Below are positions 719-36,552 of a DNA stretch of 36,552 nt, piece after piece. Made by a program: the position numbers and the translations under genes. The notes beneath the pieces are model-generated. The model ran no database searches. It saw nothing but the letters and a program-made list of their open reading frames with translations, and was not told the origin of the DNA. How positions within the stretch are numbered: the first letter of the stretch is position 1; each line of letters starts with the position of its first letter. Source of the DNA: a virus; the UHGV virus genome UHGV-0029170, one strand, 5' to 3'.

Positions 719-756
719 ACAGAGCAAATTTTATCGTGTTTAACAAAAAGTGCTGT
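700..756 (-). promoter_or_regulatory. Degenerate copy of the conserved cassette (Box A CAGCACTTTTTGTTAAAC) upstream of the helicase gene
   Basis: Reverse complement reads cAGCACTTTTTGTTAAACACGAT...TATTATAC, 20-30 nt upstream of helicase ATG at 677. Confidence 0.35.
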
Positions 757-767
757 GAGGTTAAATT

Positions 768-1169
768 ATGGAACAAATGGCAAAGGTAGACAAGCGAACT
801 TTGAACGGCAATAACGGGACGTCACGCGGGAAAGATAAGAAGCCCCGCAAGAAGCCGACAGGCTATTATGTCCTGAAGGATGAAGTAAGGGCGGGACTGA
901 CTACCAGAATGGAATTGGTGATCGAGGCATACGGCGGCATCGCCAAAACAGCAAAGGAGTTGGGCGTTAGCATCCAAGTTGTTCAGCAGTGGATTAAGCG
1001 CGGCATGATTTCAGCCGATGGTGCTTACTTGGTGCATAAGAGTTACCGCCGCAATGACTGCAAAGGCTTCAGGGCTTCATTTTGCCGCCCGGATCTCAGA
1101 TTCGACAGCAACGGCAAGCCGATTACGCGCCGATGCGACCGCCGCGAAATGCTCCGCGTAGTCCGATAG
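768..1169 (+). CDS. Putative HTH DNA-binding protein (Cro/YdaS-like motif), Arg-rich C-terminus
   Basis: ATG at 768 preceded by GAGG 8 nt upstream; segment IAKTAKELGVSIQVVQQWIKRG looks like a helix-turn-helix; function inferred. Confidence 0.4.
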   Translation: MEQMAKVDKRTLNGNNGTSRGKDKKPRKKPTGYYVLKDEVRAGLTTRMELVIEAYGGIAKTAKELGVSIQVVQQWIKRGMISADGAYLVHKSYRRNDCKGFRASFCRPDLRFDSNGKPITRRCDRREMLRVVR

Positions 1170-2207: not shown

Positions 2208-2703
2208 TTAAAACGTGAACAAATTTTAGGTAAGATTGATGATTTCAGTCTTACCTTTTTTTATGCCAAAAATTCAGCAACTTACCAACTGGTCGAACCA
2301 CTTTAGGTAAGATTTAGTAAGATGAATCTTACGTAAATTTCGCGCAAAATTTAACCAATTACACGCCATATATAGATAGTAAGTATATGATAAATAATAA
2401 TATTATTATTATTTCTCTATCTCTCTATACTTATCTTGGTAAGATTTCTCCGGGGTACGTGTCTTTTTTCGCTGGATTTCGCGCCAGATTTTTCATGGAT
2501 ATTCACCTATAGGGATCTTACCATCTTACCGATTTGCGTTAACTTTATGAAATGTATGGAAAAAACCACGTAAGATGCATCTTACTAAATCTTACGTAAA
2601 TTTCGCTCATTTTTTGACCAACCGCAGATAGCACTTTTTGACTTGCGCCGGGAATCGTCATGCGTATACTTAACGAAACGAAACCACAAATGGAGCAATA
2701 TCA
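2208..2703. repeat. AT-rich non-coding region with GGTAAGAT iterons, palindromes and direct repeats; candidate origin of replication / regulatory hub
   Basis: No ORF; GGTAAGA-N13-TCTTACC (2229-2255); GTAAGAT-2nt-ATCTTAC at 2317-2332 and 2570-2585; 18-bp direct repeat ATCTTACGTAAATTTCGC at 2326-2343 and 2589-2606; tandem ATCTTACC x2 at 2515-2530; pure A/T core 2367-2435. Confidence 0.5.
2628..2685 (+). promoter_or_regulatory. Conserved cassette copy in plus orientation (ATAGCACTTTTTGACTTGC...TATACTTAACGAAACGAAAC) upstream of exonuclease gene
   Basis: Shares Box A, a TATACT hexamer and the CGAAACGAAAC tail with the minus-strand copies; followed by RBS GGAG and ATG 2704. Confidence 0.5.
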
Positions 2704-3750
2704 ATGGCTGAAGCAATTTTCAGGGCATACACAAGCAGTGAATTGACCAACGAGCAATATCACGATCCTAATTCCTGGTGCGCGGAGTACGTTAGCGGCT
2801 CAAGCCTCGGCGAGATTTACGCAACATCCCCGGCGCACTGGAAATACAAGGTGCGCGAGGAAACCGCCGCGCTGGCGTTCGGAACCTGTTCGCATACCTG
2901 TATGCTTGAGACGGCAAAATTTAATGGCGAGTACCTGCGGGCGACTTCTCCTGGCGAGGTTAAAGATCTGATTACGTCGAAGTCGGCATTGTCTGCGAAG
3001 CTGAAAGCGTGTGGCCTGATTGGGACGTCCAACAAGGATTACCCGGAACTTCTGGAAATGGCATATCGCGCCGGGATTGACGTAAATGTTTGGTGGGCGA
3101 TTGAACTTTGCGACGAAAGCGCCGCGATGAACTCCGGGCGCAAGCTGGTTAAGGATGTTGATTTCGATGCCGTTGTTCAAATGCGAAGCGTGATGCTGGC
3201 CAACCCGCGACACGCCGCGTGTATCGAATCGCCTACCGCACAGCGTGAATTGTCAATCTTCGGTGAGATCTTCGGCGTCAAGGTCAAGGTTCGACTCGAT
3301 CATGTTGACGTTGTTTCAGATCCAGAACTAATCAAGGAGTGTGGGTTCAACCCGGATGAGGTTTTCGAGGTCGTGGTGATTACCGACTACAAAACCACGC
3401 AATCTTCCAAGCCTGACGATTTCGGGCGACTCGCCTTCAACTTGGGCTACTATCTCAAGATGGCATTGCAGCGCGATCTGTTCGTGAAGACTTACAACGA
3501 AAAACGCCCGGTAGTTGTCAGACTGCTAACGCAGGAGAAAAAATCACCGTTTGCTCCGCTGGCGTTCACCCTGACCAGCCAGCAGATCGAGATCGGTCGC
3601 AAGCAGTATCAAAGCGTGATTCATCAGTATGCGGAATGCGTGAAGCATGATTCATGGCCATCATATGAGTCAAACGCGGCGGAAGTCGTTTTGCCTACTC
3701 CGCAGTTTGTGAAATACATGTTCCCGGACGTATACGGCACAAATAGCTAA
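2704..3750 (+). CDS. PD-(D/E)xK family nuclease (putative recombination exonuclease)
   Basis: 348-aa ORF with RBS; D-x(n)-D/E-x-K-like segment ...DHVDVV...VVVITDYKTT; immediately upstream of Erf and SSB. Confidence 0.55.
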   Translation: MAEAIFRAYTSSELTNEQYHDPNSWCAEYVSGSSLGEIYATSPAHWKYKVREETAALAFGTCSHTCMLETAKFNGEYLRATSPGEVKDLITSKSALSAKLKACGLIGTSNKDYPELLEMAYRAGIDVNVWWAIELCDESAAMNSGRKLVKDVDFDAVVQMRSVMLANPRHAACIESPTAQRELSIFGEIFGVKVKVRLDHVDVVSDPELIKECGFNPDEVFEVVVITDYKTTQSSKPDDFGRLAFNLGYYLKMALQRDLFVKTYNEKRPVVVRLLTQEKKSPFAPLAFTLTSQQIEIGRKQYQSVIHQYAECVKHDSWPSYESNAAEVVLPTPQFVKYMFPDVYGTNS

Positions 3751-3809
3751 ACACTGGTTCGCACTTGTGATATAGTGCGCATTACCAATCAGGAAAAGGA
3801 AACTTTATC

Positions 3810-4466
3810 ATGCGCACATCTGAAAAATTTACCACCATCGCAGCCGCATTAATCAAGGCAAAATCTGGCTTCGTGGCCGCAAAGAAAAGCGGGAAGAACA
3901 ACCATCTTGGGAACACCTATGCGAATCTTGGTGATATCCTCGACGCTATTTCCCCGGCGCTGGAGAAGAACAAAATTATGGTCATTCAATCCATGATGGA
4001 TACCAGCACCGAAAAGGTTATGCACCTCGAAACTATGTTTTTGCATGAAAGCGGCGAGTTCATGGCGTTTCAGTACAATATGCCGATCAGTAAAACAGTC
4101 GAGCAAGCATATGGTTCAACAACATCTTACGCCCGCCGCTATGCACTGGCCGCAGCACTTGGAATCAAGCAGGCGGATGATGATGCAGAAATTACGAAAA
4201 TGACACCGAAAGACTTCAAAAAACGCATTGACGCGTGCGAAGATCTCGAATCGCTTCGGGAGATCTATAAGATGGCGAAACAAACGTTAACGCCTGCGGA
4301 ATGGAAAATGACGGAAGACGATATCACCAAACGCCAGGCAGAACTGAAAGTCACCCCGGCGAACGGCTTCAACCCTGGTAAACCGCAAGAGGTTGCTAAA
4401 CGGGAGCCGGAAAAGGTAGAATCAAAGCCCGAACCAGAAGCGCAAGATATCTCATCTTTCAACTAA
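3810..4466 (+). CDS. erf: Erf-family single-strand annealing protein
   Basis: RBS AGGAAAAGGA before ATG 3810; GSTTSYARRYALAAALGIKQADDDAE matches the conserved Erf core (P22 Erf GATSSYARKY...GIDDAKDAD) from memory. Confidence 0.75.
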   Translation: MRTSEKFTTIAAALIKAKSGFVAAKKSGKNNHLGNTYANLGDILDAISPALEKNKIMVIQSMMDTSTEKVMHLETMFLHESGEFMAFQYNMPISKTVEQAYGSTTSYARRYALAAALGIKQADDDAEITKMTPKDFKKRIDACEDLESLREIYKMAKQTLTPAEWKMTEDDITKRQAELKVTPANGFNPGKPQEVAKREPEKVESKPEPEAQDISSFN

Positions 4467-4495
4467 TTTAACCGGCGGGAAACCGCCCCATAGGA

Positions 4496-4966
4496 ATGAC
4501 AATGCATGTTGTAACAGGTGTTATCCGAAAGGAACCGTATGTCAAGGAAGGCAGCAACAATAACGGGCTGTGGAAAATGTACGCCGTAGACCTGTCGGAG
4601 CGAATGAAGATCCGCAATCGTGATGGCCAGGACGAAACGGTTTACACGAACTACCGCGCCGTTTTCTTTGCCAAAGAAAACATGATTAAGTGGTACGACG
4701 AAGCGCTGCAAATTGATAAGGTGATCAGCGTCACCTGTCGGACGCTTCAGATCGTGAACCGCGAGCACAACGGCACAATTTACAGCCACAATGAAATGAT
4801 TATGCCGCAACTAGAATTCAGCCAGCGCGAACCTGCGCAAAGCGGCGGAGGCAATCAACAATCCGGATGGGGTCAGCCTCAGCAACCGAAGCCGCAGCAA
4901 GCGCCTAAACCGCAAAACAGCGGCGGGAATCCGGGGATGGATTTCGATGATGATATCCCGTTCTAA
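4496..4966 (+). CDS. ssb: SSB-like single-stranded DNA-binding protein with host-SSB-like C-terminal tail
   Basis: C-terminus ...SGWGQPQQPKPQQAPKPQNSGGNPGMDFDDDIPF ends in the E. coli SSB tip DFDDDIPF after a Gly/Gln/Pro-rich linker; N-terminal ~110 aa compatible with a divergent OB fold. Confidence 0.6.
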   Translation: MTMHVVTGVIRKEPYVKEGSNNNGLWKMYAVDLSERMKIRNRDGQDETVYTNYRAVFFAKENMIKWYDEALQIDKVISVTCRTLQIVNREHNGTIYSHNEMIMPQLEFSQREPAQSGGGNQQSGWGQPQQPKPQQAPKPQNSGGNPGMDFDDDIPF

Positions 4967-17469: not shown

Positions 17470-18126
17470 TTAAGCGTTGGTTACAGGTAAGAAAACGTGC
17501 GAACCTTTAAGCGCAACGTTAAGGGCCACGGTTTCCATTTCGTTGACAGCCGTCGACGGGATATCATCGAAGGAAGCCGTTCCAGACCAATAACGAACTT
17601 CCGCCGCTCGCGGTACATACATGTACATCGCTTTCGCCTCTTTGCTCGCATCGGCAGCACGCAGAACCGGGTAGATCGCGTTGTCGTACTCATGCGCAAA
17701 TTGGTAGTTTAGCGTTACCGCCGATTTGTAGGTCGGTTCGGACTGCTCGCGTTCGTCGCTCAGGCACTGATAGTTATAATACTGCTGCTCGTTACCATCC
17801 TTACCCAAATCCTGAATGCATGGCAATTCGATCCAGTCAGAGATTATGCTTACGCTGCCAGTTGCCGCAGTGGGGTACTTGTTGGCGTCAGAAGTGTCGA
17901 ATTCTTCCAGGGTCGCAACACCCGCCGCCACTTCTTTAACGCGAGCCACCTTGTTCACAAAGTCGCTCCAAGTGCAATCGGTGAAGATTACAACATCGCC
18001 AGCCTCAAGCGCGCCAGTAGCAACCGTGATTTTTGGGTTTTTCGCGTCGTTAGTCATTGCGGAAAACGGGATCGCCGCCCCGCGTGCCTTCTCAAAGAAG
18101 ACCTTAGCACCGTTTGGTAAATGCAT
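17470..18126 (-). CDS. Major tail (tube) protein
   Basis: ATG at 18126 with GGAG RBS (MHLPNGAKVFF...); 218 aa; position between tail completion genes and G/GT. Confidence 0.65.
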   Translation of the reverse strand: MHLPNGAKVFFEKARGAAIPFSAMTNDAKNPKITVATGALEAGDVVIFTDCTWSDFVNKVARVKEVAAGVATLEEFDTSDANKYPTAATGSVSIISDWIELPCIQDLGKDGNEQQYYNYQCLSDEREQSEPTYKSAVTLNYQFAHEYDNAIYPVLRAADASKEAKAMYMYVPRAAEVRYWSGTASFDDIPSTAVNEMETVALNVALKGSHVFLPVTNA

Positions 18127-21326: not shown

Positions 21327-21407
21327 GTGAAACTCCTGTTTGTGTGTTTTGACTTAACGAGATGAAGAATAGCACGAATTGCTAAACGGTCAAAGGTTTT
21401 TTTAACG

Positions 21408-29558: not shown

Positions 29559-29621
29559 GTTTCGTTTCGATGGGGTAACTATACCAGCTTACCCCCGATC
29601 GGTTTTAGCAATTCGTGCTAT
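29559..29621 (-). promoter_or_regulatory. Conserved promoter/operator cassette copy
   Basis: Minus strand: ATAGCACGAATTGCTAAAACCGATCGGGGGTAAGCTGGTATAGTTACCCCATCGAAACG. Confidence 0.5.
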
Positions 29622-29817
29622 TTGGCAGGCCATCCATGACTTTCAGTTTAACCCACTCGATGCGCCCCTGCGCCTCGGCAATGCCTAACTCATAACTCGC
29701 GCCTTTCTGGTGAGGGCGAACCCGCCAGCGTTTGCCGCCCTCATCGCACCAGTAATAGAACTTCCCGCGAAAGCGCACGTTGTAGGTAAAGCCGTTGAAC
29801 CACATTTTGATGTTCAT
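29605..29817 (-). CDS. Hypothetical protein (basic, Trp/Tyr-rich)
   Basis: 70 aa; stop TAA lies inside Box A of the downstream cassette. Confidence 0.4.
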   Translation of the reverse strand: MNIKMWFNGFTYNVRFRGKFYYWCDEGGKRWRVRPHQKGASYELGIAEAQGRIEWVKLKVMDGLPNSTNC

Positions 29818-29825
29818 GTATCACC

Positions 29826-30050
29826 TCACCACTTAAAATTGCGGGAAATGATCACGCTGCCAACGGCGGAAAGTGCAATCCAGGGCCAGCACAACACAGG
29901 ATAAAGATCGTCTTTGTCGGTAGAGTCCGCAGATTTCAGGAAGGCCCGCGTGAGGAAACAGCCGCACGCATACAGGGCCAGAATAAGAACCACCAGGGCA
30001 ATAATTGCGTAAATCATGATGTTTTTCCTTGTCTTTGGTGGGGTAGCCAT
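29826..30050 (-). CDS. Small membrane protein (two predicted TM segments)
   Basis: IMIYAIIALVVLILALYACGCF and WPWIALSAVGSVIIS hydrophobic stretches; RBS GGAG 7 nt before ATG 30050. Confidence 0.4.
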   Translation of the reverse strand: MATPPKTRKNIMIYAIIALVVLILALYACGCFLTRAFLKSADSTDKDDLYPVLCWPWIALSAVGSVIISRNFKW

Positions 30051-30082
30051 GCAGCAACTCCGGTTAGTGTTTGTGGTTCGTG

Positions 30083-30403
30083 CTATTGCTGGAGTTTTGC
30101 GAAGGCGTCGGCCATCATGCGCAAAACTCGCGCGTGATCTTCAACGTCATAGCCAGGTTCGGTGCGCATGATTTCCCGAATCTTCTCGATCGTGGCGATA
30201 GCCTCCTGAAGTTCACCAGTCAGGAAAGCAACCTGCTGTTCAAGCTCCGCTATTCGTGAGAACGGTTCACGCATGAATGATTCGCACGAGGCATCACTAA
30301 GAGCCCAATCGATCCCGGCGCGAATAACGGCTTTTAACAGCGGGTCGTCGTCTTTGGCGAAGTTGTCGGACGGGATCAGGTGTATGATTTGTGTGGTGTT
30401 CAT
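30083..30403 (-). CDS. Hypothetical protein
   Basis: Start set to ATG 30403 (MNTTQII...) because ORF-track start lies inside the upstream cassette. Confidence 0.4.
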   Translation of the reverse strand: MNTTQIIHLIPSDNFAKDDDPLLKAVIRAGIDWALSDASCESFMREPFSRIAELEQQVAFLTGELQEAIATIEKIREIMRTEPGYDVEDHARVLRMMADAFAKLQQ

Positions 30404-30430
30404 GGTTAGGATCCATCTCTTGTTAGTGTT

Positions 30431-30479
30431 GGGATAGTATGCACCATCCCCGGACGTTCGTTTTAGCAATTAGTGCTAT
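30431..30479 (-). promoter_or_regulatory. Conserved promoter/operator cassette copy
   Basis: Minus strand: ATAGCACTAATTGCTAAAACGAACGTCCGGGGATGGTGCATACTATCCC. Confidence 0.45.
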
Positions 30480-30967
30480 CAAAGGGCGTCTAATTCCGCC
30501 TCAATGAATTCGTACCACTCGTGGCCGTTTGCGGGATCGTGTTCGGTTCCATGCAGCCAGTCCGTATGGGTGGAACAGAATTCGCCGGATTTGTTGAAGT
30601 AAAAGTCGGCCCATGACCGCGCCCAATCGCCGACGCCAGCGAACGTGCCGAACTTGCGGATGTATGCGTCGGTGTATCCGCGCTGCTTCGCTATGCGCTT
30701 CAGTGCGCGAACCAGCAACTTACGCGGAGACGCCTTTGACACTTTCCGCAGGTGGAAAAGCGCGTTTTCCGGCTCGCTACCAACACGGATGGTCAAATCT
30801 TCGTCAGCATCCAGCGGATTGACGATAAATTCGTTAAGGTATCCGCCCTGGATTACGTGCGCTGTGCCTAGTGGCTCGCGCACCTCGACGGCATCGAATA
30901 CGCAGCCGATAAGGTGGCGCTCACGTTCGCGGGCCGCATTGACAACCATAAGTTTGACGGTTTTCAT
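30479..30967 (-). CDS. Hypothetical protein
   Basis: 162-aa ORF; start ATG overlaps stop of upstream gene (TAATG). Confidence 0.45.
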   Translation of the reverse strand: MKTVKLMVVNAARERERHLIGCVFDAVEVREPLGTAHVIQGGYLNEFIVNPLDADEDLTIRVGSEPENALFHLRKVSKASPRKLLVRALKRIAKQRGYTDAYIRKFGTFAGVGDWARSWADFYFNKSGEFCSTHTDWLHGTEHDPANGHEWYEFIEAELDAL

Positions 30968-31185
30968 TATCGGATCTCCTTCACCTGGTGAACTTCGAGA
31001 AGGTTGGTTACTTCACGGATGCCGCAGTCCTCGAATTCCTCTTCGGCCCCTGCTGCCACCCTTAATCTGGTAAACCCGGCGTCATCGTCGATTGCGACTT
31101 CAATAACCTGCTCGCTCGAAAGCTCGATGTATGCGCAGCCGTAGGAATTCAGCTCTTCCAGCAGTGCGATTAAATTGTCGTTCAT
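30967..31185 (-). CDS. Hypothetical small acidic protein
   Basis: 72 aa, net charge about -12 (DDD, EEEFED runs); ATG 31185 with AGGAG RBS. Confidence 0.45.
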   Translation of the reverse strand: MNDNLIALLEELNSYGCAYIELSSEQVIEVAIDDDAGFTRLRVAAGAEEEFEDCGIREVTNLLEVHQVKEIR

Positions 31186-31212
31186 TGCGTTGCTCCTGAT
31201 TGGATTGTTCAC

Positions 31213-31268
31213 TTCAGTAACGCCACTTTATCAAATGACGTTACGGCAGTTTTAACAAAAAGTGCTAT
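31213..31268 (-). promoter_or_regulatory. Conserved cassette copy (variant with GTAACG...CGTTAC inverted repeat)
   Basis: Minus strand: ATAGCACTTTTTGTTAAAACTGCCGTAACGTCATTTGATAAAGTGGCGTTACTG. Confidence 0.45.
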
Positions 31269-31450
31269 TCTTTTTCGCCGCTGAACGCTGCCCGATACCC
31301 ACGGCGGAACCCGTTAATCTCCGACAGGCGGCATACGCCAATAATCATGCACAGCATTCCGATCGTCTGCCAGCCTACGTGGTCATGCAGTGCCAGGCCG
31401 CCCAGGAAGAAAGCCCAATACAGCGCGAGTTTCTTTTTGCTTACTTTCAT
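31265..31450 (-). CDS. Small membrane protein
   Basis: 61 aa; hydrophobic LALYWAFFLGGLAL and IGMLCMIIGV segments. Confidence 0.4.
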   Translation of the reverse strand: MKVSKKKLALYWAFFLGGLALHDHVGWQTIGMLCMIIGVCRLSEINGFRRGYRAAFSGEKE

Positions 31451-31692
31451 ACTTTCACCTCAAATAGAACGTTGTTTTCGTATGGCCTATTGGCATACAT
31501 GGCGATCTTTTCGTCCGGCATACGGCAGGCGGGCCAGAATTCTTCGTCCTCAGTAGTTACCTGGTCGTCCTGCAAAATCCATACTTCATCAAGGCCAGGG
31601 CCGAACCTGGCTTCATACTCGCGGCCAGGTGTGAAATAGGTGGATAGCGGCGAATAGCCAGCGTGCGTGCAAATTACTTTTACCGTTTCCAT
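31447..31692 (-). CDS. Hypothetical protein
   Basis: 81 aa; start overlaps upstream stop (TAATG). Confidence 0.4.
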   Translation of the reverse strand: METVKVICTHAGYSPLSTYFTPGREYEARFGPGLDEVWILQDDQVTTEDEEFWPACRMPDEKIAMYANRPYENNVLFEVKV

Positions 31693-31994
31693 TAGTAGAT
31701 CCCGTTAGTCCAAACGTAGCCGTGTTCGATTATCTCGCGCAGCTTAACCTTCTTCGGCGCTGGATTTACTCCGTCTCCGCCAGTGTAGAACCCTGTTCCA
31801 TACGCAAAATGAACCTGCTTCGCGAACAGTCCGCCGCGCGCCTGGATGTAAAGTCGGTTGCGCATGGCCAGACCTCTAAGCGTGTTGACCTGCTCGATGG
31901 GGTCGCCTTTTACATTCGAGATCTTGCACATTACTGGCTTTTCGCCAAATTGCCCGGTTAAGCAGTGGCGGTCGAAGTCTGATAAACGTATCAT
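31692..31994 (-). CDS. Hypothetical protein
   Basis: 100-aa ORF in the co-directional array. Confidence 0.4.
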   Translation of the reverse strand: MIRLSDFDRHCLTGQFGEKPVMCKISNVKGDPIEQVNTLRGLAMRNRLYIQARGGLFAKQVHFAYGTGFYTGGDGVNPAPKKVKLREIIEHGYVWTNGIY

Positions 31995-32003
31995 CCAGAC
32001 ACC

Positions 32004-32375
32004 TCAAAGCTGATTTGCAAAGATGTGCCAGACGTGATCTTCTGGCGTGCGTTTCATTAGTTTGTGCGCCTTGCGTGCCATGCGCTTATAGTCGCGGGCG
32101 GTAAGTTTCGTGGGGTCGGCAACGAACGATTCAACAATTAACCCATCGCAATGATATTCCGGCAGCCATTCCCGATGGGTTCGCCATTCGTTGAAAGTGG
32201 TTAGCTGGATAACGGAATGCAAGTCACTGTGAAGGTGCTCCCCGCGCTCGCCGTAATGGAAAGCTCCGCGAATTTTGCCATCATTGCCTACGTGCAAAAG
32301 GTGAATGCGGCTTTTCTTGCCTTCGAAGTTGGTTCCGACGATGGCGACAACTGCGTTTTTGACGATCTGCTTCAT
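32004..32375 (-). CDS. Hypothetical protein (His-rich)
   Basis: 123 aa; first ORF downstream of cassette copy 32400-32448. Confidence 0.45.
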   Translation of the reverse strand: MKQIVKNAVVAIVGTNFEGKKSRIHLLHVGNDGKIRGAFHYGERGEHLHSDLHSVIQLTTFNEWRTHREWLPEYHCDGLIVESFVADPTKLTARDYKRMARKAHKLMKRTPEDHVWHIFANQL

Positions 32376-32399
32376 GGTGAATCTCCGTTGTTTGGTGTA

Positions 32400-32448
32400 T
32401 GGCCATTATGCCCGATCTGCTGACCGGGCGTTTAGCAAAAAGTGCTAT
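32400..32448 (-). promoter_or_regulatory. Conserved promoter/operator cassette copy
   Basis: Minus strand: ATAGCACTTTTTGCTAAACGCCCGGTCAGCAGATCGGGCATAATGGCC. Confidence 0.5.
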
Positions 32449-32646
32449 TCAGAAACAGAGCGCCTCACGCTCCAGGCTGGCCAGTGACGGAAAGCTGAAT
32501 TTTGTAACGTGGTACGAGCCGCCAACATAGCCGGAAATGCTGATATTGTTGAACTCAACCTCAACACTGATAATCTTCATGTTCTTGCTGAAGGCGTACA
32601 TTGCAAGCGCACGGTGCGCCCGCGCCAGGAATTCGAATTGGTTCAT
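32449..32646 (-). CDS. Hypothetical protein
   Basis: 65 aa; ATG overlaps upstream stop (ATGA). Confidence 0.35.
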   Translation of the reverse strand: MNQFEFLARAHRALAMYAFSKNMKIISVEVEFNNISISGYVGGSYHVTKFSFPSLASLEREALCF

Positions 32647-32900
32647 TTAAAGATCGCCCCTTTGATTTTGTTCCAGAAAGCGAATGGCTGACGCTGCGGC
32701 TTCAGTTCCACGATATCGTGATCATAGAATCCGCGATGCTTGCCGCAAAGGAGCGGCTGCACGCCATCCGTTACCATATCGCCAATGAAGAACCGCTTGC
32801 CGCTATCCATGAAGTAAAGGCCGTGGCATACGCCTGGCGCGGCATGAGTTGCGGTATCTGGCAGGCTGTATACCCTGCCGCGAGATTTGAATTGCTGCAT
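32643..32900 (-). CDS. Hypothetical protein
   Basis: Start set to ATG 32900 (MQQFK...) with AGGAGA RBS. Confidence 0.4.
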   Translation of the reverse strand: MQQFKSRGRVYSLPDTATHAAPGVCHGLYFMDSGKRFFIGDMVTDGVQPLLCGKHRGFYDHDIVELKPQRQPFAFWNKIKGAIFK

Positions 32901-32941
32901 TATCCTGTCTCCTTGCATAATTTGGTCGTTAATCGACTTCG

Positions 32942-32990
32942 TGATAATTATGCCCGATCCTCTGACCGGGCGTTTAGCAATGCGTGCTAT
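32942..32990 (-). promoter_or_regulatory. Conserved promoter/operator cassette copy
   Basis: Minus strand: ATAGCACGCATTGCTAAACGCCCGGTCAGAGGATCGGGCATAATTATCAC. Confidence 0.5.
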
Positions 32991-33307
32991 TTCAGGCCGC
33001 GAAGGTCAATCTTCGATCTTGCCCAATCAGGGAAGCGAGCCATTTCGCCAACCTGAACCATTTTGTTTCCGCCCGGCCCCTTATCCACCCATGAATCAGG
33101 CGAGTAGCTCAGTAGGCGAACATTTTCAACGGTCGACTCATAGGCCCAAATCGCCCCGTCTTCATCAATGGCAACCGTGTTAGTCCAAACTGGCACGTCA
33201 AGCGACTGCATATCGAACGTGCCAGGGATGTTAATCTGGAAGGCTACAACGTGGCGCTGCGTGATGGTGGCCACTACTTGCTCGCCGGATTTAACTTCGT
33301 TAATCAT
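32987..33307 (-). CDS. Hypothetical protein
   Basis: Start set to ATG 33307 (MINEVKSGEQ...) with AAGGAG RBS. Confidence 0.4.
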   Translation of the reverse strand: MINEVKSGEQVVATITQRHVVAFQINIPGTFDMQSLDVPVWTNTVAIDEDGAIWAYESTVENVRLLSYSPDSWVDKGPGGNKMVQVGEMARFPDWARSKIDLRGLK

Positions 33308-33317
33308 TGCGTTCTCC

Positions 33318-33530
33318 TTACAGGAACATTCCAGCCAGGCGCAGGCGGGTAATGATGCTATCCCGTTTAGCGCGCAGGCCATCATAGTAATCTTCCAGTT
33401 GCGCATCCCATGACGGCAGGTCAAGCATAAGATTCATTTCGTTGCACACCACCTTCAGCGCGTGGAAGTGTTGCTCTACCGCGCGACGGTGAAATGCTGC
33501 ATTGAGTGGGTTGTTTTGGTTGCCGATCAT
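33318..33530 (-). CDS. Hypothetical protein
   Basis: 70 aa; first ORF downstream of cassette copy 33545-33602. Confidence 0.4.
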   Translation of the reverse strand: MIGNQNNPLNAAFHRRAVEQHFHALKVVCNEMNLMLDLPSWDAQLEDYYDGLRAKRDSIITRLRLAGMFL

Positions 33531-33544
33531 GTTTACGCTCCTCT

Positions 33545-33602
33545 GTTTCGATGGGGTAATGATAGCGCATCACCCCGATTGCGTTTTAACAAAAAGTGCT
33601 AT
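33545..33602 (-). promoter_or_regulatory. Conserved promoter/operator cassette copy
   Basis: Minus strand: ATAGCACTTTTTGTTAAAACGCAATCGGGGTGATGCGCTATCATTACCCCATCGAAAC. Confidence 0.5.
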
Positions 33603-34093
33603 TACTGTGGGATCTGGAAGCAGAGTTCCCGCCAGTTGCGATGCTCGCGGCCAGTGTTGCCCAGGAAGCAGACTGTTCGCGCAATGTGGCCGTACTGCTC
33701 CGAACCGCGAATCCATTCGCCCAGGTAATCATTCGCGTCGTCGTCATCCGGCAGGCAGTGGCGCGGGCGCATCTTGAATGCGAAGACGTCGCCGTTACCG
33801 TCGATGGCAATGTGGGTGGCCCCGCCCTGGATGGCCGTCTGTGCGGTTGCAGTCGTGGTGCTTTTGTCGATGCCAGCCAGGAAGTTAGAGAATTCGTTCA
33901 TGGCCATGCTCTTTTGCTCCGGCTCCGCCTCGACAAGCAGAAGTGTATCGTTGCCGACCATCGCAAAGAAGATCGCCGCTGTCATATTCGACTTCTTCAC
34001 AATCTTGCCTTCGCGCTTGCGCATCATCACTGCGTCATCTTCCAGCCAGTAAATCAGGCCATTAAGGGTGTTGAGGTATTCGCGAGATTTCAT
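33602..34093 (-). CDS. Hypothetical protein
   Basis: 163 aa; RBS GGAGCA before ATG 34093; first ORF downstream of cassette copy 34110-34169. Confidence 0.45.
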   Translation of the reverse strand: MKSREYLNTLNGLIYWLEDDAVMMRKREGKIVKKSNMTAAIFFAMVGNDTLLLVEAEPEQKSMAMNEFSNFLAGIDKSTTTATAQTAIQGGATHIAIDGNGDVFAFKMRPRHCLPDDDDANDYLGEWIRGSEQYGHIARTVCFLGNTGREHRNWRELCFQIPQ

Positions 34094-34109
34094 TGTGGTG
34101 CTCCGTTGT

Positions 34110-34169
34110 TCGTTTCGATGGGGTTACTATAGCAAGCCGCCCCGATCGTGTTTTAACAAAAAGTGCTAT
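34110..34169 (-). promoter_or_regulatory. Conserved promoter/operator cassette copy (extended -10-like TGCTATAGT)
   Basis: Minus strand: ATAGCACTTTTTGTTAAAACACGATCGGGGCGGCTTGCTATAGTAACCCCATCGAAACGAAC. Confidence 0.5.
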
Positions 34170-34381
34170 TTGAAGTTGTGAACCTGGTTCCCGCCGCTGT
34201 GGTCGTCAATGTCAACGCCGTCGCAGGTGACGTAAAAGCCGCGAATTACGGTGAAGCGCCACTTGCCTAACCAGTGGAAGTATACGCCGTGCTCGCTGCC
34301 ATGGACGGCTTTGGTTGATGAGTATGGGATCGGCATCCCGGCGAAGGTGCGAAGTTTGGTTGTTGCTGAAAATCGTGGCAT
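34166..34381 (-). CDS. Hypothetical protein
   Basis: ORF 34166-34387; start probably ATG 34381 (AGGAGG RBS 7 nt upstream). Confidence 0.4.
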   Translation of the reverse strand: MPRFSATTKLRTFAGMPIPYSSTKAVHGSEHGVYFHWLGKWRFTVIRGFYVTCDGVDIDDHSGGNQVHNFK

Positions 34382-34450
34382 GGCCATTCCTCCTGGCGTT
34401 TGCCGTGCTGGTGGTGGGAATATAGCGCCACCGAAGCGGCGCTATTGTGA

Positions 34451-34558
34451 TTATTTACCCTGGCGCGCAAGGTAGCGCTCTTTGAGTTTCTGCCAGTGCC
34501 AGCGCATAACGTGTTCGTTATGGTAGTTGCTGGTTGAATATGGATTCTTCTTGCTCAT
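34451..34558 (-). CDS. Very small basic protein, about 35 aa (not in ORF track)
   Basis: Hand translation MSKKNPYSTSNYHNEHVMRWHWQKLKERYLARQGK; GGAG 8 nt upstream of ATG 34558; fills gap between neighbouring genes. Confidence 0.25.
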   Translation of the reverse strand: MSKKNPYSTSNYHNEHVMRWHWQKLKERYLARQGK

Positions 34559-34575
34559 CTTCATCTCCAGGTTGC

Positions 34576-34761
34576 TTACTTGATTCGAACTTCAACTTCA
34601 ATGTCGGACTGCGGCGCGAAGAGTTGGGCCTTTCCATTAACGCGAATGGTAAGAATGTTCCCCTTGCGATCTGCTGCGAGAACCAGGCGAAACTTGCCAG
34701 CAAACTTAACCATCATTCCCGGCTTAACTTCGCTCATCTTGATAACCTTATCCATCTTCAT
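34576..34761 (-). CDS. Hypothetical small protein
   Basis: Start set to ATG 34761 (MKMDKVIKM...) with GAGGTGA RBS; first ORF downstream of cassette copy 34770-34830. Confidence 0.4.
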   Translation of the reverse strand: MKMDKVIKMSEVKPGMMVKFAGKFRLVLAADRKGNILTIRVNGKAQLFAPQSDIEVEVRIK

Positions 34762-34769
34762 CACCTCAG

Positions 34770-34830
34770 TTCGTTGTCGATGGGTAAATAATACCGGATC
34801 TCGCCATCGGCGTTTTAGCAAAAAGTGCTA
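34770..34830 (-). promoter_or_regulatory. Conserved promoter/operator cassette copy
   Basis: Minus strand: ATAGCACTTTTTGCTAAAACGCCGATGGCGAGATCCGGTATTATTTACCCATCGACAACGAAC. Confidence 0.5.
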
Positions 34831-35037
34831 TCTTTCCACCTCGTGCATATCGCCAACCGAAAGATAATAAGCGATATCAAGGCGGCTCATTGTGGGATGA
34901 GGCCAGCCGCATTCATGCCAGATAACATCGCCCTCGCCTTTAGTCCACATGGTTTCGCCATCCCAGCGCCAAAGGCGGTTATTGAGGCGCGATCCGTAGA
35001 CCGCGCCAGGTTTTACATCGCTCGCCTTAAAATTCAT
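34828..35037 (-). CDS. Hypothetical protein
   Basis: ORF 34828-35088; likely start at internal ATG 35037 (MNFKASDVKPG...). Confidence 0.35.
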   Translation of the reverse strand: MNFKASDVKPGAVYGSRLNNRLWRWDGETMWTKGEGDVIWHECGWPHPTMSRLDIAYYLSVGDMHEVER

Positions 35038-35179
35038 AATCGACAACCCCGAACTCGTTAACGATCTGCGCCTTGTAAAAGCCACCATTTGCCGCCAGAT
35101 TGTAGCACGCCGCCACGGTCTCGAACTCGCGCACTTCCGGCTTGCTGTTTTCGTGTTCCCAGGTAATCAGAGTAATCAT
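35027..35179 (-). CDS. Hypothetical small protein, about 50 aa
   Basis: Start set to ATG 35179 (MITLITWEH...) with GAGGAAACC RBS, because ORF-track start lies inside the upstream cassette. Confidence 0.35.
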   Translation of the reverse strand: MITLITWEHENSKPEVREFETVAACYNLAANGGFYKAQIVNEFGVVDYEF

Positions 35180-35191
35180 TTCGGTTTCCTC

Positions 35192-35255
35192 GGTTCGTTG
35201 TCGATGAAGAGATAATACCCGATCGCTCTGACCGGGTTTTAACAAAAAGTGCTAT
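35192..35255 (-). promoter_or_regulatory. Conserved promoter/operator cassette copy
   Basis: Minus strand: ATAGCACTTTTTGTTAAAACCCGGTCAGAGCGATCGGGGTATTATCTCTTCATCGACAACGAAC. Confidence 0.5.
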
Positions 35256-35559: not shown

Positions 35560-36093
35560 TTATTCTCCTGTGATTTTGGCTTTCAGTGCCATTGTGTAAC
35601 CGTTGTAAAGCAGGCCTTTTGGCATCACTTCGTCAATGATGGCAAGGCATCTTTCCCGCTCAGAGGTAGCGCCCTGCTTTCTGTACGCTTCCGCCTCCAT
35701 GTGCGAGCCAGTCATTGCGTCGAACTCGGTAAAGACGGAGATTAACCCCACCCCCAGGCTCACGCGCAACACCTCGCCCGGCTCCAGGAGTTTCAGCAAC
35801 GGCCTGCGGAAATGGTTGTCGACAGGATGAACGCCGAACTTCTCCGCGAACTCCTCCGCCGTCATCTGGATACGCCGCCCGCCATCCAGGAACATGCGCC
35901 GGATCTCGGAAGAGCGGTTGCCAGTGAATGTGCCTTCCGGCTTCGCGGCTTCCTGGCTCCGCCCGGCTGGCCTGGTGGCGTCACCAAACGTGATGGATTG
36001 CAGCCATTCATGGTACGCGGCCTGTTTTTCTGCGTCGTACTGCATCCACTCGGACACGTCGACTTCCTCGAACTCATAACCTTTATATTGCAT
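35560..36093 (-). CDS. Hypothetical protein, first gene of the minus-strand small-gene array
   Basis: ORF 35560-36108; likely start ATG 36093 (MQYKGYEFEE...) with GGGGGAA RBS; no recognisable motif. Confidence 0.45.
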   Translation of the reverse strand: MQYKGYEFEEVDVSEWMQYDAEKQAAYHEWLQSITFGDATRPAGRSQEAAKPEGTFTGNRSSEIRRMFLDGGRRIQMTAEEFAEKFGVHPVDNHFRRPLLKLLEPGEVLRVSLGVGLISVFTEFDAMTGSHMEAEAYRKQGATSERERCLAIIDEVMPKGLLYNGYTMALKAKITGE

Positions 36094-36287
36094 GTGTTTC
36101 CCCCACATTTACGGCGTTTGTGTGTGTTTGGTAAGGCTATCTTACTGGCTCAAGGCCTTGTCGTCAAAGGGTTTGTGCGTGTGTGGTAAGATTCGGAAGC
36201 ATCCCCTATATACCCCTTTACATATATCGCGCGGCGGAACATCTAAAATTTACGGCTCTCGCAAGATGATTCCGGTAGCCATGCCGG

Positions 36288-36420
36288 GAGAAATCTTACC
36301 AAACATATATAGATAGAGAGAGTAATAATAATAATATTGTTATTTATCATATACTTATATATTTATTATAGTCTTATATTGGTCACTTTTTGTGCAATTT
36401 TCAGGTAAGATTTTTCCTCC
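36288..36420. repeat. AT-rich core flanked by inverted GGAGAAATCTTACC / GGTAAGATTTTTCC arms; partial inverted copy of 2367-2452
   Basis: 36288-36357 matches the reverse complement of 2367-2452 over ~70-85 bp (shared GGAGAAATCTTACCAA...AATAATAATAATATTRTTATTTATCATATACTTA); second arm at 36404-36417. Confidence 0.5.
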
Positions 36421-36552
36421 CCCACATTCCCACACGACGCAAGTGTTGGTGAAACACACCTGACGTTTTGCTGGCTTCGAGCGGCAAATTATGTGCATGG
36501 TGCATACATCTATGCAATTCGTTGCACATCATGAAGCACTCCATCATCACAT

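What the first reader, a model, noticed from the sequence alone, without database searches (positions are those of the whole stretch)
36110..36552. Second GGTAAGAT-iteron region is a partial inverted copy of the first, about 34 kb away
36288-36357 matches the reverse complement of 2367-2452 (GGAGAAATCTTACCAA, then AGAGAGA-type AT repeats, then AATAATAATAATATT(G/A)TTATTTATCATATACTTA). Here the AT core is flanked by inverted 14-bp arms GGAGAAATCTTACC (36288-36301) and GGTAAGATTTTTCC (36404-36417); further GGTAAG sites at 36131-36146 and 36183-36190. Each region sits upstream of a transcription unit in the same relative orientation (region A before the plus-strand exo-erf-ssb unit, region B before the minus-strand small-gene array), so they may be paired control regions or two origins. 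A sigma70-like TTGACG-17-TAAGAT promoter candidate reads into gene 36093 from about 36147-36176 on the minus strand.
Basis: seen in the sequence. Interest (0 to 1): 0.6.

Follow-up and report, generated by a model that had tools for sequence, protein, structure and literature searches.

The report
Twin iteron-flanked AT-rich modules, T1-like phage
This T1-like Klebsiella phage carries two copies of a conserved ~130-base AT-rich module flanked by GTAAGAT repeats; the design looks most like replication-origin protein-assembly sites, which nobody has yet located in this phage family, but its function is untested.

Summary
The window is about 36.5 kb of a roughly 50-kb Webervirus (T1-like, Drexlerviridae) genome. 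A 131-nt module at 2325-2455 (+) recurs inverted at 36284-36412. It includes GC-containing arms, not just AT repeats. GTAAGAT occurs 20 times in the window, 14 of them in these two regions (P about 2e-18).

Both copies are present in every Webervirus copy examined (35 region-A and 30 region-B copies). Copies within one phage are no more alike than copies between phages, so this is an old duplication under constraint.

The same layout occurs at the same two places in other Drexlerviridae genera:
- upstream of exo-erf-ssb;
- in the divergent intergenic region where the T1 and TLS records begin.

The repeat differs by genus: GTAAGAT, GTAACA, RGAACA, GAAACA. Many cores outside Webervirus contain an exact IHF consensus.

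The modules lie upstream of, not at, the recognisable sigma-70 promoters.

Best reading (about 0.45): two origin-type protein-assembly sites, like SPP1 oriL/oriR or P4 ori/crr. Candidate binders are a Cro-fold protein or the winged helix of an MCM-like helicase.

Rivals are looped operator regions and a packaging accessory site. No experiment supports any function. I rate it a new member of a known kind, of moderate interest.

The parts
2208..2703 (+). Region A: 496-nt non-coding gap between the primase and exo/RecE genes. It holds 10 perfect and 2 one-mismatch GTAAGAT sites.
2228..2263 (+). Intrinsic terminator after the primase gene. Its stem is an inverted iteron pair (GGTAAGAT 2229-2236 and TCTTACC 2250-2256), followed by a T-run.
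   Evidence: annotated as a terminator in KpV522
2306..2332 (.). Iteron cluster 1: GGTAAGAT (+), GTAAGAT (+) and ATCTTAC (-). It contains the 16-bp palindrome GTAAGATgaATCTTAC at 2317-2332.
2333..2358 (+). X-box 1, GTAAATTTCGCGCAAAATTTAACCAA. It is repeated at 2596-2621 and in region B. Similar TAAATTTaGCgCAAAA boxes occur in other genera.
   Evidence: (family D4)
2325..2455 (+). Module A: the 131-nt unit shared with region B.
2367..2436 (.). AT-rich core A, the second most AT-rich 100-nt stretch in the window (0.79). It contains a 20-bp (AAT)n(ATT)n palindrome and an IHF-like site, TATCATATACTTA, at 2380-2392 (-).
2437..2455 (+). Invariant block TTGGTAAGATTTCTCCGGGG at the gene-proximal edge of the module. 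It reads as an extended -10 (TGgTAAGAT).
2515..2530 (-). Two tandem iterons, ATCTTACCATCTTACC.
2570..2595 (.). Iteron cluster 2: GTAAGAT (+), ATCTTAC (-) and ATCTTAC (-), with the palindrome GTAAGATgcATCTTAC at 2570-2585. It mirrors cluster 1 (arms 2302-2366 and 2536-2600, 74% complementary).
   Evidence: (I1)
2596..2621 (+). X-box 2, GTAAATTTCGCTCATTTTTTGACCAA.
   Evidence: D4
36109..36552 (.). Region B, the part inside the window. It is a divergent intergenic region between the leftward early gene array and rightward genes that start about 660 nt further on, beyond the window end.
36139..36167 (-). Leftward sigma-70-type promoter candidate, TTGACG-17-TAAGAT, reading into the 182-aa gene (probable start codon at 36093). 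The -10 is an iteron only in this subclade.
36185..36192 (+). Isolated GGTAAGAT site, conserved across Webervirus.
36284..36412 (-). Module B, the inverted copy of module A. It is bounded by GGAGAAATCTTACC (36287-36300) and GGTAAGAT (36404-36411).
36301..36371 (.). AT-rich core B, the most AT-rich stretch in the window (0.82-0.87). It carries the IHF-like site TATCATATACTTA at 36345-36357 (+).
36379..36403 (-). X-box of region B. On the minus strand it reads CTGAAAATTGCACAAAAAGTGACCAA.
36440..36552 (.). TGCA/GATG-rich segment. It corresponds in position and motif content to where the T1 and TLS genome records start (the packaging-start area). It adjoins the shared module but is not part of it.
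768..1169 (+). Candidate iteron-binding protein: a 133-aa Cro-fold helix-turn-helix protein, encoded first in the operon with the primase gene.

Best explanation
The two regions are homologous origin-type protein-assembly sites that are conserved across T1-like phages. Each has an easily melted AT-rich core, which in many genera carries an IHF bending site. The core is flanked by direct, inverted and palindromic copies of a genus-specific 6-8-bp repeat spaced about one helical turn apart.

Proposed mechanism (inferred, not shown):
1. A phage DNA-binding protein coats the repeats. Candidates are the Cro-fold protein encoded upstream of the primase gene, or the winged-helix end of the phage's MCM-like helicase.
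2. The core is bent and melted.
3. The phage helicase and primase are loaded, and host DNA polymerase III then copies the genome.

Region A, with 12 sites, would be the main site. Region B, with 5 sites, would be a second origin or a cis-acting partner, as with SPP1 oriL/oriR or P4 ori/crr.

Shown here: the repeats, the duplication, the conservation across the family, the position relative to promoters, and the folds of the candidate proteins. Inferred: binding, melting and initiation.
For: 1. Repeat enrichment. GTAAGAT is more than 100-fold enriched in the two regions. In the complete Shelby genome, 13 of 18 copies lie there.

2. AT content. The cores are the two most AT-rich 100-nt windows, at 0.82 and 0.79 against a mean of 0.49 and sd of 0.06. 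T1 has exactly two 70-nt stretches with AT of at least 0.87, at the same two places.

3. Conservation across the family.
- The layout is X-box, repeat, core, tandem repeats, then GGGGTA.
- The core sits a constant 337-376 nt before the exo start in most genera.
- The repeat differs by genus: GTAAGAT, GTAACA, RGAACA, GAAACA. This is as expected if it co-evolves with a phage protein.

4. IHF site. The strict consensus WATCAANNNNTTR lies inside the core in 10 of 18 distinct exo-side cores and 10 of 27 left-end cores outside Webervirus. Nearly all are in one orientation. Background is 0.063 per kb.

5. Age of the duplication. Copies within one phage are 0.766 identical and copies between phages 0.749. 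Region-A copies are 0.83 alike and region-B copies 0.89. This indicates long-term purifying selection on both.

6. Position. The modules lie upstream of or between the recognisable sigma-70 promoters. In other genera a consensus TTGACx-17-TAtAAT sits about 40 nt before exo, downstream of the repeat field.

8. Known analogue. In P4, 8-bp TGTTCACC repeats at 9-11-bp spacing, in both orientations, flank AT-rich DNA in two distant regions.

9. Gap in the literature. The origin is reported as not found in SU57, and the TLS paper reports no lambda-type iterons in the helicase gene or elsewhere in the genome.
Against: - There are no experimental data of any kind for replication starting here.
- No DnaA boxes are present, and GATC is depleted (one site in region A, none in B, against 198 in the window). 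This is unlike oriC or the P1 origin.
- The module's orientation is fixed relative to the downstream operon and its distance to exo is constant. That fits a transcription-linked role at least as well.
- Perfect 16-bp palindromes are classic operators for a dimeric Cro-type repressor.
- The recognition helix of the Cro-fold protein does not track repeat type cleanly.
- No homologue of the P4 alpha origin-binding domain was found by sequence.
- The Webervirus IHF-like site has a mismatch at a conserved position and lies in the opposite orientation to that in other genera. T1 cores have no IHF consensus.
- Region B coincides with the area where T1 and TLS packaging starts.
Confidence: 0.45

Rival explanations
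1. These are transcriptional control regions. The repeats are operators for the Cro-fold protein, which binds palindromes and half-sites on both sides of a bent AT-rich or IHF core. It loops the DNA to switch the exo-erf-ssb operon and the leftward early operon on or off during the infection programme.
For: - Perfect 16-bp palindromes, GTAAGAT-N2-ATCTTAC, occur at 2317-2332 and 2570-2585. The two clusters are mirror images about 250 nt apart.
- The phage protein at 768-1169 has a Cro fold. Its best matches are Xfaso1 Cro and N15 Cro, and its Pfam hits are P22_Cro and YdaS.
- The module's orientation and its distance to exo are conserved across genera.
- In this subclade one site overlaps the -10 of the leftward promoter.
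- In TLS, AGAACA lies in the spacer of the TTGACG-17-TAATAT promoter.
Against: - Twelve sites spread over about 400 nt, far upstream of the promoter, is unusual for a sigma-70 operator region.
- Most sites are isolated half-sites or direct repeats with no palindromic partner.
- The overlap of an iteron with the promoter -10 is absent from most weberviruses.
- The regulator's own promoter region has no GTAAGAT.
- The rightward early promoter and the helicase promoter also lack the sites.
- The recognition helix does not co-vary simply with the repeat.
Confidence: 0.3
2. This is a packaging recognition element. The repeats and the bent core are binding sites for the small terminase, as with the P1 pac hexamers around an IHF site or the lambda cosB R sites around I1. 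Region B would then be part of pac.
For: - The T1 record starts, with its 2.8-kb terminal repeat, inside the region-B equivalent, about 200 nt from the AT core.
- TLS position 1, set by restriction mapping of the pac fragment, falls at the same place.
- The SU57 paper places pac in this untranslated region for T1-like phages.
- Repeat clusters around an IHF site are the known design of P1 pac and lambda cosB (my own knowledge).
Against: - The same module, with even more sites, sits upstream of exo, 15-34 kb away. A second pac there would produce a second packaging series. I know of none for T1 (my own knowledge).
- The T1 and TLS genome ends lie in a different, unique segment rich in TGATTG and GATG, next to the module rather than in it.
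Confidence: 0.1
3. Each module is itself a strong host-polymerase promoter. The AT-rich core acts as an UP element, and the invariant TTGGTAAGAT acts as an extended -10 that fires toward exo and toward the leftward early genes.
For: - TGgTAAGAT fits the TGnTAnnnT pattern.
- The 20-nt block TTGGTAAGATTTCTCCGGGG is nearly invariant in both copies, beyond what a 7-bp protein site would need.
- The AT tract lies where an UP element would lie (read directly).
Against: - No acceptable -35 is present, and the consensus scan did not call it.
- The equivalent repeats in T1, TLS and other genera (GTAACA, GAACA) cannot serve as -10 hexamers. Those phages have a separate consensus promoter nearer the gene.
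- This reading leaves the other 10 or more sites unexplained.
Confidence: 0.1
4. The similarity is a neutral duplicate or low-complexity AT sequence with no function.
For: AT-rich repeats align easily, and parts of the core are palindromic. That also produces a weak direct match (D8).
Against: - The GC-containing arms are conserved.
- Both copies are kept in all Webervirus loci examined and at the same two syntenic sites in other genera.
- Region-A and region-B copies each cluster together, which indicates purifying selection.
- Repeat enrichment has P about 2e-18.
Confidence: 0.03

Closest known systems
Bacillus phage SPP1 oriL and oriR, bound by the G38P replisome organiser (recalled from memory: Pedre 1994, Missich 1997)
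   Same: Two distant regions of one virulent pac-type siphovirus genome carry the same short repeated boxes next to an AT-rich stretch.
   Different: No G38P homologue was looked for or seen here. The SPP1 boxes are about 18 bp, and oriL lies inside the initiator gene. Binding and origin function are proven for SPP1 and untested here.
Satellite phage P4 ori and crr, bound by the alpha primase-helicase
   Same: Eight-bp repeats at 9-11-bp spacing, in both orientations, flank AT-rich DNA in two regions several kb apart. The Webervirus primase shares the alpha zinc-ribbon N-terminus (35% identity, E 1e-10). TLS repeats include GTGAACA, the core of the P4 repeat TGTTCACC.
   Different: The Webervirus repeat is GTAAGAT. 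No homologue of the alpha C-terminal origin-binding domain was found. The helicase here is MCM-like (DUF3987), whereas the P4 alpha helicase is of the D5/SF3 type (my own knowledge), and it is encoded separately from the primase.
Iteron plasmid origins with an IHF site (pSC101, R6K gamma) and the lambda origin
   Same: Tandem repeats at helical spacing lie next to an AT-rich unwinding region. A host bending-protein site is present in many genera.
   Different: There are no DnaA boxes or GATC clusters. The repeats are 7-8 bp rather than 18-22 bp. They occur on both sides of the core and as palindromes. No Rep or O-type initiator was identified.
SaPI origins, bound by the island's Rep helicase (recalled from memory)
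   Different: The helicase family is different. A SaPI has a single origin.
P1 pac and lambda cosB
   Same: Clusters of short terminase-binding repeats lie on both sides of an IHF site. Region B lies in the packaging-start area.
   Different: The module is duplicated far from any genome end. The T1 and TLS ends map to a neighbouring unique segment.

Membership tests
Iteron-type replication origin | Multiple copies of a short specific repeat clustered in a non-coding region | tested here: met
   14 of the 20 GTAAGAT copies lie in 940 nt, P 1.9e-18. T1 has 6 + 6 KTAACAS sites in its two regions out of 34 genome-wide.
Iteron-type replication origin | An adjacent AT-rich DNA-unwinding element | tested here: met
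   The cores are the two most AT-rich stretches of the window and of T1. Actual unwinding was not measured.
Iteron-type replication origin | A replicon-encoded initiator binds the repeats | not testable with these tools
   There are two candidates only: the Cro-fold protein and the winged helix of the MCM-like helicase. Co-variation with the repeat type was not clear.
Iteron-type replication origin | Replication initiates at the site, or the site supports replication in cis | not testable with these tools
   No replication data exist for any Drexlerviridae in the papers searched.
Iteron-type replication origin | Host-factor sites (IHF, DnaA, Dam) | tested here: inconclusive
   A strict IHF consensus is present in 20 of 45 distinct cores outside Webervirus. 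Webervirus has a one-mismatch site. There are no DnaA boxes and GATC is depleted.
P4 ori/crr system | Type I repeat TGTTCACC | tested here: not met
   The Webervirus repeat is GTAAGAT. Only TLS-like phages have GTGAACA.
P4 ori/crr system | Alpha protein with a C-terminal origin-binding domain | tested here: not met
   Only the zinc-ribbon N-terminus matches the primase. No match to alpha residues 561-777 was found in any fetched locus.
P4 ori/crr system | Two separate cis regions carrying the same repeats | tested here: met
   Regions A and B.
pac site of a headful phage | Lies at the unique start of the packaging series | tested here: inconclusive
   Region B is syntenic with the start of the T1 and TLS records. 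Region A is not near any known end. No read data were available.
Sigma-70 promoter | -35 and -10 hexamers with a 16-18-nt spacer | tested here: not met
   For the shared module, the scan finds only weak AT-rich matches at or below shuffle expectation. A separate TTGACG-17-TAAGAT lies outside the module.
Cro/CI-type operator | Palindromic 14-18-bp site matched to a dimeric helix-turn-helix protein encoded by the phage | tested here: inconclusive
   Two perfect 16-bp palindromes and a Cro-fold protein are present. Most sites, however, are non-palindromic, and binding is untested.
Known RNA families (Rfam) | A covariance-model match | tested here: not met
   No match in region A. In region B there is one chance-level hit, E 0.32 and below the gathering score.

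The most novel reading that the evidence does not exclude
The two modules are the loading sites of a phage-encoded MCM-like (SF6, DUF3987) helicase. Its variable winged-helix end reads the genus-specific repeats on either side of an IHF-bent, easily melted core. This would be the first defined origin for a bacterial-virus MCM-type helicase, and a two-site (origin plus partner) system shared by all T1-like phages.
Probability: 0.25. Interest if true: 0.7.

Novelty: new member of a known kind. Interest (0 to 1): 0.5.

Why it matters
T1-like phages are classic laboratory viruses, frequent fermentation contaminants, and (as Webervirus) common candidates for Klebsiella phage therapy. Yet the papers searched give no replication origin for them: the SU57 paper found none, and the TLS paper found no lambda-type iterons.

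A conserved, duplicated site with genus-specific repeats gives concrete targets for three kinds of work:
- mapping origins;
- engineering these phages or building phage-dependent vectors;
- working out how an MCM-like phage helicase is loaded.

If the modules turn out to be operators instead, they would define the missing temporal switch of this family.

Tried and rejected
- **Concerted evolution or ongoing recombination between the copies.** Rejected. Same-phage A-B identity is 0.766 and different-phage identity is 0.749.
- **Co-variation of the Cro-fold recognition helix with the repeat type.** Noisy and not clean. AGAACA-type repeats go with two quite different helices.
- **Sequence search for the P4 alpha origin-binding domain.** Nothing found.
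- **nhmmer profile of the AT core against whole genomes.** The composition-bias correction removed the signal (E 2.9-5.8), so it was not usable.
- **Scan of 596 Gb of bacterial genomes with GTAAGATGMATCTTAC, looking for satellites that copy the site.** Only scattered chance hits, none in Klebsiella. The pattern was too short for that database and the scan was wasted.
- **Plasmid database.** The only hit is a Webervirus genome mislabelled as a plasmid.
- **Distant blastn in the phage collection.** Only weberviruses were found.
- **Rfam.** No family matched.
- **Single-strand folding of the modules.** Only the terminal repeats pair. The z-scores are -2.9 for A and -0.8 for B, so there is no convincing hairpin structure.
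- **GC skew.** It follows transcription direction and is uninformative about an origin.
- **DnaA boxes, strict IHF consensus and Dam clusters in the window.** All absent.

Full report
**What the window is.** Megablast of both regions finds roughly 300-350 Klebsiella phage records at 80-96% identity, all Webervirus, a T1-like genus of the family Drexlerviridae. The window is about 36.5 kb of a roughly 50-kb genome, reverse-complemented relative to phage Shelby.

- Region A (2208-2703) is a 496-nt non-coding gap. The primase gene (1245-2207) ends before it and the exo-erf-ssb operon (from 2704) starts after it.
- Region B (36109 to the window end, continuing about 660 nt in relatives) is a divergent intergenic region. 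On one side is the leftward array of small early genes, which leads to the terminase genes. On the other are rightward small genes, a methyltransferase and a helicase.
- On the circular map the regions are about 34 kb apart one way and about 15 kb the other. They are not adjacent.

**The observation.**

- The repeat finder reports 2380-2429 against 36308-36357, 50 nt at 92% complementarity. BLAST extends this to a 131-nt module, 2325-2455 (+) against 36284-36412 (-). A and B copies are 78-86% identical in every Webervirus locus compared.
- An alignment of 35 region-A and 30 region-B copies shows nearly invariant shared blocks that include GC-containing sequence. The blocks are AATCTTAC, GCGCAAAA, ACCAAT, TAAGTATATGATAAATAATAATATTATTATTATTACTCT and TTGGTAAGATTTCTCCGGGG. 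The similarity is therefore not just AT repeats.
- GGTAAGAT occurs 11 times against 0.56 expected. The 7-mer core GTAAGAT occurs 20 times, 10 in region A and 4 in region B. The binomial P is 1.9e-18.
- In the complete Shelby genome, 13 of 18 copies lie in the two regions.

**Anatomy of region A.**

1. An inverted repeat pair at 2229-2256 forms the stem of the primase terminator (annotated as such in KpV522).
2. Cluster 1 (2306-2332) has three sites, including the perfect palindrome GTAAGATgaATCTTAC.
3. A 26-nt X-box follows (2333-2358).
4. Next is the AT-rich core (2367-2436). It has a 20-bp (AAT)n(ATT)n palindrome and an IHF-like TATCATATACTTA.
5. Then comes the invariant TTGGTAAGATTTCTCCGGGG.
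6. Two tandem sites lie at 2515-2530.
7. Cluster 2 (2570-2595) mirrors cluster 1 and contains the palindrome GTAAGATgcATCTTAC.
8. X-box 2 follows, then a degenerate copy of the family's 21-nt repeat just before exo.

**Anatomy of region B.** It has the module bounded by inverted sites, one further conserved site at 36185, and a site in the -10 of a TTGACG-17-TAAGAT leftward promoter. That last site is specific to this subclade. Most weberviruses have TATTAT there.

**Age of the duplication.** In 28 phages with both copies, same-phage A-B identity (0.766) is about the same as different-phage A-B identity (0.749). Region-A copies are 0.83 alike and region-B copies 0.89 alike. The duplication is old, both copies are under constraint, and there is no sign of ongoing gene conversion.

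**Conservation across the family.**

- *T1.* It has exactly two 70-nt stretches with AT of at least 0.87. One is upstream of exo and one is at the left end of the record. Each is flanked by GTGTAACA-type repeats: 6 and 6 of the 34 KTAACAS sites genome-wide.
- *Strand of the exo block.* In every non-Webervirus locus the exo block is on the opposite strand to the regulator-primase operon. The AT core and repeats still sit upstream of exo, at a nearly constant 337-376 nt from its start codon.
- *Repeat sequence.* It changes with genus: GTAAGAT in Webervirus, GTAACA in T1 and Rtp-like phages, RGAACA in TLS-like phages, and GAAACA or GTAAACA in others.
- *Shared order of elements.* A multiple alignment of exo-side and left-end cores from eight or more lineages shows the same order: X-box (TAAATTTaGCgCAAAA), a repeat, CCCTATA, AAATCAATAGTTTAG, TTATATATAT, three tandem repeats about 10 nt apart, then GGGGTAT.
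- *One element family.* Exo-side cores of one genus resemble left-end cores of another as much as they resemble other exo-side cores. This is one element family present twice per genome.
- *IHF consensus.* AATCAATAGTTTA fits the strict consensus WATCAANNNNTTR. That consensus is present in 10 of 18 distinct exo-side cores and 10 of 27 left-end cores outside Webervirus, nearly always in one orientation. Background is 0.063 per kb.
- *Exceptions.* Webervirus has a one-mismatch version in both copies in the opposite orientation, and T1 has none. The IHF element is therefore common but not universal.

**Position relative to promoters.** In other genera a near-consensus TTGACx-17-TAtAAT promoter lies about 40 nt before exo, downstream of the whole repeat field. 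In region B the module lies between two outward-facing elements. The leftward promoter is at 36167 to 36139. The rightward one is beyond the window end: the scan calls TCGACA-17-AATAAT in L001, and most weberviruses have a 21-nt-repeat element there. The consensus scan finds no convincing promoter inside the module. The modules thus occupy untranscribed or weakly transcribed space next to promoters.

**Candidate binding proteins.**

- *Cro-fold protein (768-1169).* It gives weak P22_Cro and YdaS Pfam hits and has homologues in 831 phage records. Its predicted structure (pLDDT 86) best matches Xfaso1 Cro and N15 Cro. It fits the 16-bp palindromes, but its recognition helix does not track repeat type cleanly. 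Its own promoter region has no GTAAGAT.
- *Primase.* It shares the zinc-ribbon N-terminus of P4 alpha.

**Comparison with known systems.** The P4 record annotates TGTTCACC repeats at 9-11-bp spacing, in both orientations, around AT-rich DNA in two regions (ori and crr) about 5 kb apart. This is the same design, but with a different repeat and no detectable alpha origin-binding domain here. From memory, SPP1 oriL and oriR, bound by G38P, are another two-site precedent in a virulent pac phage. P1 pac and lambda cosB share the pattern of repeats around an IHF site.

**Packaging.** Region B coincides with the packaging-start area. The T1 record begins there with its 2.8-kb terminal repeat. TLS position 1, set by restriction mapping, is at the same place, and the SU57 paper says the same. 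In both phages the end falls in a neighbouring segment rich in TGATTG, GATG and TGCA, which corresponds to 36440-36552 and beyond. It does not fall in the shared module, and region A is far from any end.

**Verdict.**

- I rate the origin-type assembly site reading highest, at about 0.45. It best explains the number and arrangement of sites and the melted-core design. It also fits the position beside promoters, the duplication, and the phage's own helicase-primase set.
- A looped operator region for the Cro-fold protein is a serious rival, at about 0.3. It is favoured by the palindromes and by the fixed orientation and distance to exo.
- A packaging role (about 0.1) and an extended -10/UP promoter (about 0.1) are less likely.
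- These roles are not mutually exclusive.
- No function has been tested.
- The TLS paper reports no lambda-type iterons in its helicase gene or elsewhere in the genome, and the SU57 paper could not find an origin. The element therefore appears undescribed, though its architecture is of a familiar kind.

Noticed in passing
window 738-756 (-), 29603-35255 (nine copies, -), 21369-21387 (+), 18104-18122 (+): The 21-nt repeat ATAGCACnnnTTGnTAAAA occurs 12 times at up to 2 mismatches, against 0.06 expected. Most copies lie upstream of small early genes, and one precedes the RadD-like helicase gene. The TLS paper (PMC11447400) lists it as an unexplained feature of T1-like phages. By eye, a -10-like hexamer lies 21-22 nt after the TTGnTA in several copies, which is too far for a normal sigma-70 promoter. 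The copy at 21369 points against the direction of the genes.
   Followed up: partly
window 2704-4966, compared with loci L111-L154 and T1 (L074 30378-32633): The exo-erf-ssb block is co-directional with the primase gene only in Webervirus. In all other Drexlerviridae loci it is on the opposite strand. The AT-core and repeat module moved with it.
   Followed up: partly
window 36440-36552, continuing in L001 6900-7140: This TGCA/GATG/TGATTG-rich segment corresponds to the place where the T1 and TLS genome records start, which is the packaging-start area. Further on is a cluster of two TATTCC and two GGAATA copies shared by T1 (48750-48806) and Webervirus.
   Followed up: partly
window 36139-36145: The -10 of the leftward early promoter is the repeat-type TAAGAT only in this subclade. 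Most weberviruses have TATTAT at the same position.
   Followed up: yes
window 2228-2263: The primase terminator hairpin is built from an inverted pair of the repeat, so one sequence may serve as both terminator stem and protein site.
   Followed up: partly
[not shown]
   Followed up: yes
window 2208-2703 and 36109-36552: GATC is frequent in the window (198 sites, about one per 185 nt, in a phage that encodes methyltransferases). It is nearly absent from the two regions, with one site in A and none in B.
   Followed up: no
IMG/VR contigs 3300045988_000814 (L002, L041) and 3300045988_003647 (L030, L053): Two metagenomic contigs of 33-35 kb end at or within both modules. The likeliest cause is an assembly or coverage break at the AT-rich inverted copies. 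An inversion of the segment between the copies was not examined.
   Followed up: no
PLSDB record CP124687.1 (49,647 bp): This record, labelled a Paraclostridium bifermentans plasmid, matches region A over its full length at 91% identity and has a Webervirus-sized length. It is probably a mislabelled phage genome.
   Followed up: no
window 35560-36108 (-): The first leftward early gene most likely starts at the ATG at 36093, which has a GGGGGA ribosome-binding site, and not at 36108. Homologues align from residue 5-6 onward.
   Followed up: partly
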